DNA from: Octopus sinensis
Taxonomy: Eukaryota
Length of the DNA stretch: 9,850 bases
Direction: 5' to 3'
NCBI RefSeq assembly: GCF_006345805.1
Contig: NW_021827842.1
Location: forward strand, 1-9,850
Part shown: piece after piece, positions 9,214 through 9,850 of the stretch
Layout: the number at the start of each line of letters is the position of its first letter
Position numbering within the stretch: position 1 is the first letter of the stretch
Notes under the pieces: generated by a model
Seen by the model: the letters and a program-made list of their open reading frames with translations, nothing else
What the model was told of the DNA's origin: nothing
The model's database searches: none
Program-made: the position numbers and the translations under genes

Positions 9214-9255
<42 letters not shown>

Positions 9256-9331
9256 TGCAGCGTGGAAGGTGTTTATAAGCCATTTAAGAAACACACAAAA
9301 GCCGTTCGATTCCGTTCAACATTTAGTTTAA

Positions 9332-9381
9332 TTTGTCAAAATATTTTCGTCGCTAAAATCCGCGACCTGTTCACTGACAAA
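9332..9381 (-). ncRNA. Putative minimal type I hammerhead ribozyme, variant core (intact stems)
   Basis: UUUGUCA-GUGAACA-G-GUCGC-ggauuuua-GCGAC-GAA-AAUAUU-U-UGACAAA: 7-bp stem I, core with G3/C8, 5-bp stem II, GAAA, palindromic stem III, UH site, then stem I partner. Confidence 0.65.
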
Positions 9382-9398
9382 GTCCGTGCAGCACGGAC

Positions 9399-9448
9399 TT
9401 TTTCAGTGAACAGGTCGCGGATTTTAGCGCCGAAAATATTTTGACAAA
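9399..9448 (+). ncRNA. Second copy of the hammerhead-like motif, with one mismatch in stem I and one in stem II
   Basis: UUUUUCA-GUGAACA-G-GUCGC-ggauuuua-GCGCC-GAA-AAUAUU-U-UGACAAA. Confidence 0.5.
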
Positions 9449-9586
9449 TTAAACTTAAATGTGAACGGAATCGAACGGCTTTTGTGTGTTTCTTAAATGG
9501 CTATAAACACCTTCCACGCTGCAATTGTTTTCGATTCAGCACACGATCTCAGATCAAATTACTTGCTATGCGAGTACATCTCCGTA

Positions 9587-9594
9587 ATATATTA

Positions 9595-9625
<31 letters not shown>

Positions 9626-9850
9626 ATTATATATATGTACAATTTATATGTGTGTGTGTGTGTATATATATATATGATAAGGTATATATGATGTAAAAGG
9701 GAAAAACAGGAGTAAAAATATGAGTAAATGTACACCTTTTCATATATAAATATATATATATATATGTATTTATATATATATATAATATATACCTATGATT
9801 ATATACTGCTGTATAAATGTATATATACACACACACCTATGCATATTATA
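9587..9850. repeat. TA-rich low-complexity/microsatellite tract
   Basis: Interrupted (TA)n, (TG)n and (CA)n runs. Confidence 0.9.

What the first reader, a model, noticed from the sequence alone, without database searches (positions are those of the whole stretch)
9332..9381. Hidden hammerhead-like ribozyme with a swapped catalytic 3-8 pair (GUGAACA core)
Seen: the minus strand folds as UUUGUCA/UGACAAA (stem I, 7 bp), core G-U-G-A-A-C-A, one extra G, GUCGC/GCGAC (stem II, 8-nt loop), GAA, self-complementary AAUAUU (stem III) and a U at position 17. Every element is in hammerhead register. The predicted cut is between window positions 9339 and 9338. Established: the canonical core is C3-U-G-A-N-G8-A9 with C3-G8 forming a Watson-Crick tertiary pair, and compensatory swaps can restore activity. 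Single-nucleotide insertions between A9 and G10.1 occur in some natural viroid/satellite hammerheads. Penelope-like elements carry minimal type I hammerheads with palindromic stem III that cleave as dimers. Inference: this is a natural G3-C8 covariant hammerhead that CUGANGA pattern searches would miss, possibly present in many copies in this genome. The extra G and the UUU cleavage triplet may lower activity. I cannot tell whether this variant has already been catalogued.
Basis: partly seen in the sequence, partly recalled or inferred. Interest (0 to 1): 0.85.

Follow-up and report, generated by a model that had tools for sequence, protein, structure and literature searches.

The report
Retroelement hammerhead with swapped core pair
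This 50-base stretch is the hammerhead-ribozyme motif of a jumping gene (a Penelope-like retroelement) with over 4,000 copies in this genome; two normally fixed paired letters of its core are swapped compared with sister families, so it is likely a slow but still working self-cutting RNA, although cutting is untested.

Summary
Observation confirmed. The motif is the hammerhead in the terminal repeat (pLTR) of a recently active Penelope-like retroelement (RT plus C-terminal GIY-YIG, Neptune/Nematis-type linker). The window holds only a head-to-head pair of truncated pLTRs in (TA)n, and a read-through RNA would bury the motif in a long hairpin. The G3-C8 core has 4,106 exact matches in G000 (control 0); C3-G8 on the same stem II has none. 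Sister families carry C3-G8 at the same place and relatives in metagenomes carry C3-G8 or U3-A8, with compensatory changes in stems I, II and III, so the swap is a true natural covariation. Against strong catalysis: an extra G and U17; only 1 of 100 unbiased copies starts at the cut; G3·G8 copies occur about five times more often than the mirror change; the sister family's youngest branch has C9. An engineered C3G/G8C Penelope hammerhead partly cleaves (PMC11167929). I found no natural G3-C8 in print, but Lünse 2017 was not readable. The scan noted G3-C8 motifs behind Penelope-like RTs in two other genomes (unchecked notes). New variant of a known kind.

The parts
9252..9389 (-). Truncated solo pLTR of the Penelope-like element, arm without the tail
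   Evidence: Matches the full-length element L243/L062 at 95-96.5%; 58 places at 91-100% in the best-scored candidates
9375..9381 (-). Hammerhead stem I, 5' strand
9368..9374 (-). Core G3-U4-G5-A6-A7-C8-A9 (G3 at 9374, C8 at 9369)
   Evidence: 75 of 82 unbiased copies are G3/C8
9367..9367 (-). Extra G between A9 and G10.1
   Evidence: also the consensus in families B and C
9349..9366 (-). Stem II (5 bp, G10.1-C11.1) and 8-nt loop II
   Evidence: the loop varies between subfamilies, the stem does not
9340..9348 (-). G12-A13-A14 and palindromic stem III segment (AAUAUU)
9338..9339 (-). Predicted cleavage site, 3' of U17 (9339)
   Evidence: Register by hammerhead numbering; cleavage untested
9332..9338 (-). 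Hammerhead stem I, 3' strand
9281..9283 (-). ATG that starts the element's ORF in full-length copies (no ORF follows here)
   Evidence: L243 frame 1326..3152 starts at this pLTR ATG, 92 nt after G3
9391..9588 (+). Second, inverted pLTR arm with a ~60-nt tail (9529-9588); its hammerhead (9399-9448, G3 9406, C8 9411) has one broken pair in stem I and one in stem II
9217..9251 (.). (TA)n microsatellite at the left end (likely target site)
9587..9675 (.). (TA)n-rich microsatellite at the right end

Best explanation
The motif is the pLTR hammerhead of a recently active Penelope-like retroelement family in which the tertiary 3-8 pair is G-C instead of C-G, and it likely still self-cleaves slowly after U17, probably only as a dimer or with help from the element's protein. 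Shown: the element (RT-GIY-YIG ORF, direct 5' pLTR, 3' pLTR, tail, inverted partial copies), the position of the motif about 90 nt upstream of the start codon, the fixed swap, and covariation with sister families. Inferred: transcription starts 15-25 nt upstream of G3; mostly uncut RNA serves as mRNA and as template; occasional cutting would remove the first ~60 nt with the cap or separate tandem units, so a weakened ribozyme is tolerated. The copy in this window is a dead-on-arrival inverted pair and is predicted to be inert.
For: Copy number 4,106 vs control 0; C3-G8 on the same stem II 0. 23 of 30 best endonuclease loci have the same-strand G3-C8 motif 0.87-1.14 kb after the stop. 1,042-aa open frame in L086; GIY-YIG Pfam E 5e-5; full-length element with two direct hammerheads 4,361 nt apart. 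Sister lineage (57% aa, joined 95/91 in the tree) has C3-G8: 21 of 24, 6 of 8 and 11 of 16 copies in its three groups. Of 9 metagenome relatives, 3 show C3-G8 and 2 show U3-A8 at the same place; 4 show none or are cut. On 9 representatives 93% of cells pair, 7 of 13 pairs change on both sides, the 3-8 pair is C-G 5, G-C 3, U-A 1 and never unpaired; slid controls 27-48%. Within the family, subfamily-level changes break 0 of 43 stem/core positions against 9 of 72 loop/flank positions (p 0.025; 0.088 if a pair-keeping U-G change is counted). The oldest EN-linked copy (L093) is already G3-C8. In the anole Penelope element single C3G or G8C abolish and the double mutant partly restores cleavage, which needs the element's protein (PMC11167929).
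Against: No cleavage data. 5' ends of 100 copies anchored downstream do not pile up at the cut: 1 of 100 at it, 3 within 4 nt, while 83 reach upstream of G3. C8-to-G copies are about 122 against about 25 for the mirror G3-to-C (background 0.35-0.5%); they include EN-linked copies and 5' pLTRs of older full-length elements, so elements with an unpaired 3-8 position could spread. The youngest sister branch and L209 have C9. The extra nucleotide is G where the published consensus is A/C/U, and the palindrome extends to 10 nt, which can trap A13, A14 and U17 in a dimer. The 9 rows are related and hand-picked from those that aligned (L203, L207 left out after misaligning), so its shuffle count is not a probability.
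Confidence: 0.6

Rival explanations
1. The fold is kept but no longer cuts at a useful rate: stems and the 3-8 pair are kept as a structure in the 5' leader (for protein binding, transcription or translation control), not for catalysis.
For: No pile-up at the cut; excess G3·G8 copies and C9 in an actively spreading sister branch; hammerhead mutants did not affect insertion in vitro and no reads ended at the site in the anole element (PMC11167929); Naiads lack hammerheads yet thrive (PMC8557442).
Against: U4, G5, A6, G12, A13, A14, A15.1-U16.1 and a non-G 17 are kept across families about 45-57% identical in protein, and the 3-8 pair, which forms only in the active fold (established knowledge; PMC8495972), stays Watson-Crick in three states.
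Confidence: 0.3
2. The swap is neutral decay: two independent hits in one master copy that happen to be complementary, then amplified.
For: Given two changes, complementarity has about a one-in-three chance; copies share one ancestor, so the 4,106 count is one event; core changes such as C9 did get fixed in family B.
Against: The rest of the core and all stems stayed intact through a lineage whose ORF copies differ by up to about 22%; independent U3-A8 states in L207 and L209; an older related family also has C8.
Confidence: 0.1

Closest known systems
Minimal type I hammerheads of metazoan Penelope-like elements (Cervera and de la Pena 2014, PMC4209133)
   Same: In both pLTRs; extra nucleotide between 9 and 10.1; G10.1-C11.1; palindromic short stem III; mostly solo or inverted truncated copies; predicted dimer action and low activity.
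   Different: G3-C8 in place of C3-G8; extra nucleotide G (1 of 56 listed motifs has G there, by my reading of Fig. S3 text); 7-bp stem I. None of the 56 listed motifs has G3-C8.
Natural U3-A8 hammerheads (Perreault 2011, PMC3088659; Schistosoma Cercyon PLE, PMC4209133)
   Same: Natural compensatory exchange of the 3-8 tertiary pair, also inside a PLE family.
   Different: U3-A8 keeps pyrimidine-purine order and needs two transitions; G3-C8 reverses it and needs two transversions.
Engineered C3G/G8C double mutants, including the anole Poseidon (PAc) hammerhead (PMC11167929; review PMC8495972)
   Same: Same core state; partial rescue of cleavage reported.
   Different: Here natural and fixed in a family of thousands of copies; activity not measured.
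Neptune/Nematis-type EN+ Penelope-like elements (PMC8557442)
   Same: Single ORF RT then GIY-YIG, CX3CxxC linker, pLTRs, tail, inverted 5'-truncated copies, (TA)n targets.
   Different: Tail about 60 nt rather than 30-40; long microsatellite-rich 3' region; clade not placed against reference elements.

Membership tests
Hammerhead ribozyme (type I, PLE minimal form) | Literal core C3-U-G-A-N-G8-A9 | tested here: not met
   G3 and C8 in place of C3 and G8; U4, G5, A6, A9 present
Hammerhead ribozyme (type I, PLE minimal form) | Watson-Crick pair between positions 3 and 8 | tested here: met
   G-C here; C-G and U-A in homologues; 9 of 9 rows paired; 75 of 82 unbiased copies
Hammerhead ribozyme (type I, PLE minimal form) | G12-A13-A14, A15.1-U16.1, H17 | tested here: met
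   kept in families A, B, C
Hammerhead ribozyme (type I, PLE minimal form) | Stems I and II with G10.1-C11.1, supported by covariation | tested here: met
   family C has a one-base bulge in stem I
Hammerhead ribozyme (type I, PLE minimal form) | Short palindromic stem III allowing a dimer | tested here: met
   AAUAUU; outer pair covaries A-U / G-C / U-A; dimer only marginally favoured in cofolding
Hammerhead ribozyme (type I, PLE minimal form) | Extra nucleotide A/C/U between 9 and 10.1 | tested here: inconclusive
   Extra base present but G; published consensus H
Hammerhead ribozyme (type I, PLE minimal form) | Match to an Rfam hammerhead model | tested here: not met
   None to E 10 in the window; canonical-core sisters in 5 loci also miss the gathering scores, so the test does not discriminate
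Hammerhead ribozyme (type I, PLE minimal form) | Self-cleavage 3' of position 17 | not testable with these tools
   Indirect footprint test negative
EN+ Penelope-like element | Single ORF with RT and C-terminal GIY-YIG | tested here: met
   1,042-aa frame; PF01541 on the C-terminal part; Pfam finds no RT on the whole frame, RT motifs read by eye with recalled names, homologues labelled RT-domain by UniRef
EN+ Penelope-like element | pLTRs (direct and inverted), optional tail, hammerhead in pLTR | tested here: met
Neptune/Nematis clades | CX2-5CxxC linker between RT and EN; microsatellite targets | tested here: met
   CQSNCAVC in the frame; (TA)n flanks; feature list from PMC8557442
Neptune/Nematis clades | Placement in an RT tree with reference elements | not tested
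   No named reference PLE proteins were in hand; tree has none

The most novel reading that the evidence does not exclude
In this clade of Penelope-like elements the hammerhead's 'invariant' 3-8 pair has been exchanged repeatedly (C-G, U-A, G-C, perhaps U·G), and the G3-C8 form is a working, deliberately slow, protein-triggered switch in the 5' leader that decaps the element's own mRNA; searches fixed on CUGANGA then miss whole families of active ribozymes, and some elements reported to lack hammerheads may carry them.
Probability: 0.3. Interest if true: 0.75.

Novelty: new variant of a known kind. Interest (0 to 1): 0.52.

Why it matters
The C3-G8 pair was proven by engineered swaps; nature was known to use U3-A8, and I found no report of natural G3-C8 in the searches made. 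A family-wide G3-C8 with C3-G8 sisters in the same genome gives phylogenetic support for the tertiary pair in its hardest form and a ready-made natural series (C-G, G-C, U-A, G·G, C9) to test the open question of whether Penelope hammerheads need to cut at all. It also shows that CUGANGA descriptors undercount ribozymes.

Tried and rejected
Footprint of cleavage in 5' ends of copies: not found (3 of the 17 copies starting downstream of G3 start within 4 nt of the cut, p 0.22). G3·G8 as the evolutionary intermediate: not supported, since the oldest EN-linked copy is G3-C8, G8 occurs in all loop-II subfamilies and in single arms of inverted pairs; the root of that tree is unresolved. Other G3-C8 families with a different stem II start: 321 matches vs 179 control, the first 100 were mostly a SINE-like repeat and a LINE-like coding repeat without hammerhead stems. 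Expression: no RNA holder listed on record; contigs of four runs cover the element, but they cannot show strand, ends or level. Viral contigs: 2 matches with a 3-bp stem II and no stem I, taken as chance; genome contigs: 0. Rfam, PDB and Pfam on the whole ORF gave nothing useful. A search with a more distant endonuclease returned only families A and B. Literature for natural G3-C8: searches and supplement searches found only engineered cases. Lünse 2017, Przybilski 2007 and Martick 2006 were not held; file 1 of the PMC4209133 supplement was not searchable, figures are not held, and the bioRxiv supplements are closed, so a natural G3-C8 could be listed there or in Repbase/Dfam.

Full report
OBSERVATION. 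The motif is present as described on the minus strand, 9381-9332, with the predicted cut between 9339 and 9338. It folds with stems I and II at -14.7 kcal/mol, z -3.4. A relaxed hammerhead descriptor allowing any Watson-Crick 3-8 pair finds it once in the window and never in 1,500 simulated windows. Rfam shows no hammerhead up to E 10.

WHAT IT BELONGS TO. G000 is a 2.72-Gb animal genome; a protein labelled Octopus vulgaris matches a sister family in it at 99%, so an octopus-like host is inferred. The core plus stem II has 4,106 exact matches, the reversed control 0; a downstream anchor has 5,663. Two of the first 50 loci held a GIY-YIG frame upstream. Of the 30 best endonuclease loci, 23 have the same-strand G3-C8 motif 0.87-1.14 kb behind the stop. 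L086 has a 1,042-aa open frame with RT motifs (read by eye, names recalled), a CX3CxxC linker and the endonuclease (its first ~30 residues come from another repeat). L243/L062 is a full-length element with a direct 5' pLTR, tail, ORF (one frameshift) and 3' pLTR, the two hammerheads 4,361 nt apart; the ORF starts at an ATG inside the pLTR, 92 nt after G3. These are the features of EN+ Penelope-like elements of the Neptune/Nematis type (PMC8557442, passages). The window therefore holds two truncated pLTRs. A transcript through both arms folds as one hairpin; forcing the hammerhead costs 66.8 kcal/mol, so this locus is predicted inert unless transcribed from its centre.

IS THE SWAP REAL? With this family's stem II the canonical C3-G8 core has 0 matches. 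The sister lineage (57% aa; joined with support 95/91) has the homologous motif at the same pLTR position with C3-G8: 21 of 24, 6 of 8 and 11 of 16 copies in its young (B, C9), older (B, A9) and oldest (C) groups (the last two groups were selected for G8, position 3 was free); such G8 motifs give 2,033 matches against 25 control. Of 9 metagenome relatives, L203, L204 and L208 show C3-G8 (L204 with U4G, L208 with an odd stem III), L207 and L209 show U3-A8, and four show no motif or are cut. On 9 representatives, 93% of cells pair, 7 of 13 pairs change on both sides across stems I, II, III and 3-8, and slid controls reach 27-48% (rows are related, and L203 and L207 were dropped after misaligning). 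In 100 copies taken in chromosome order by a downstream anchor, 75 of the 82 covering both positions are G3/C8, 4 G3/G8, 3 other. Subfamily-level changes fall in loop II and flanks (9 of 72) and break no stem or core position (0 of 43; one A-to-G change keeps a U-G pair), p 0.025-0.088. The oldest EN-linked copy with a pLTR, L093 (78% to the young ORF), is G3-C8. Five copies of a still older related repeat have C8 with mixed position 3, found by a pattern that excluded G3, so their consensus is unknown; four copies of another have U3 with G8.

DOES IT CUT? For: in the anole Penelope element C3G or G8C alone abolish cleavage, the double mutant partly restores it, and cleavage needs the element's protein (PMC11167929, parts 1-2 of 4 and passages); a review gives 10^5-fold loss for G8C and partial rescue by C3G (PMC8495972, passages). 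Against: the same paper found insertion unaffected by these mutants and no reads ending at the site. Here 5' ends cluster 15-25 nt upstream of G3 (50 of 100) and at -7/-8 (20, partly an alignment effect), and only 1 of 100 begins at the cut; uncut RNA is thus the usual template, and the cluster likely marks the transcription start (inference). C8-to-G copies number about 122 against about 25 for G3-to-C (45 of the first 100 of 271 rows; 21 of the first 100 of 118 rows; tallied by eye, scaled), while other changes match background. G8 sits in three EN-linked mid-age copies and in the 5' pLTR of several older full-length copies. This is unexplained: a hot spot, side-branch masters, or selection for uncut 5' pLTRs. 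C9 in young family B and L209 points to relaxed demands on the core. The extra base is G where the published consensus is A/C/U (PMC4209133, parts 1-2 of 4 and supplement file 2 parts 1-2 of 3); that an extra G lowers activity is recalled, not read. The palindrome extends to 10 nt over A13-U1.1 and can compete with the active dimer.

MECHANISM. Shown: structure, position in the leader, fixation, covariation. Inferred: the pLTR promoter starts RNA just before stem I; most RNA stays whole, is translated from the pLTR ATG and reverse-transcribed from the tail or the pLTR end into (TA)n targets, giving solo and inverted pLTRs like this one; a fraction is cut after U17, as a dimer through stem III or once the protein binds, which would remove the cap or split tandem units. 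Odds: slow but working 0.6, kept as structure only 0.3, neutral double hit 0.1.

KNOWN VERSUS NEW. It works like a minimal Penelope hammerhead and is homologous to canonical ones; it fails the literal core consensus and cleavage is untested. Natural U3-A8 is in print (PMC3088659, passages; PMC4209133). G3-C8 appeared only as an engineered mutant in my searches (supplement of PMC8557442). Lünse 2017, with many PLE variants, was seen only as a reference entry and may hold it. Other papers seen as passages only: PMC6765202, PMC3884650, PMC10085705, PMC2920678, PMC3376415, PMC6155905; bioRxiv 2026.07.22.740005 part 1 of 5. Two unchecked notes of this scan report G3-C8 motifs behind Penelope-like RTs in other genomes, which suggests recurrence but is not evidence. 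Verdict: new variant of a known kind, interest 0.52.

Noticed in passing
G000-wide; L095, L108, L173, L248, L250-L254, L260/L264: C8-to-G (G3·G8) copies are about five times more common than the mirror G3-to-C change and are frequent in the 5' direct pLTR of older full-length elements.
   Followed up: partly
L113-L142 (family B) and L209:2497: The youngest branch of the sister family and one metagenome relative have C in place of the conserved A9.
   Followed up: partly
L374-L378: An older related repeat with C7-C8, a 4-nt palindrome and homologous pLTR; position 3 is T, A, C, C, A in five copies found by a pattern excluding G; it may be a second G3-C8 family.
   Followed up: partly
L380-L383: Four copies of another related motif all have U3 with G8 (wobble), a possible step towards U3-A8.
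   Followed up: no
L258, L270, L259 (G000:C12295, C30): Arrays of several pLTR hammerheads in direct tandem about 165-200 nt apart, which could form dimers in cis and resemble retrozyme-like repeats.
   Followed up: no
window 7295-7897: GC-rich minisatellite, about 40 copies of a 13-16-nt unit with higher-order periods.
   Followed up: no
window 1-250, 1150-1420, 8270-8650: Stretches shared with 15-73 of the fetched loci, i.e. other abundant short repeats, probably SINEs (class recalled).
   Followed up: no
L021/L022 (G000:C2:190.75 Mb): An inverted pLTR pair lies directly beside an intronless-looking innexin frame (PF00876, E 5e-105).
   Followed up: no
window 9252-9528 and many loci: Inverted pLTR pairs would give ~140-bp near-perfect RNA hairpins on read-through, possible substrates for editing or small-RNA pathways (inference).
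   Followed up: no
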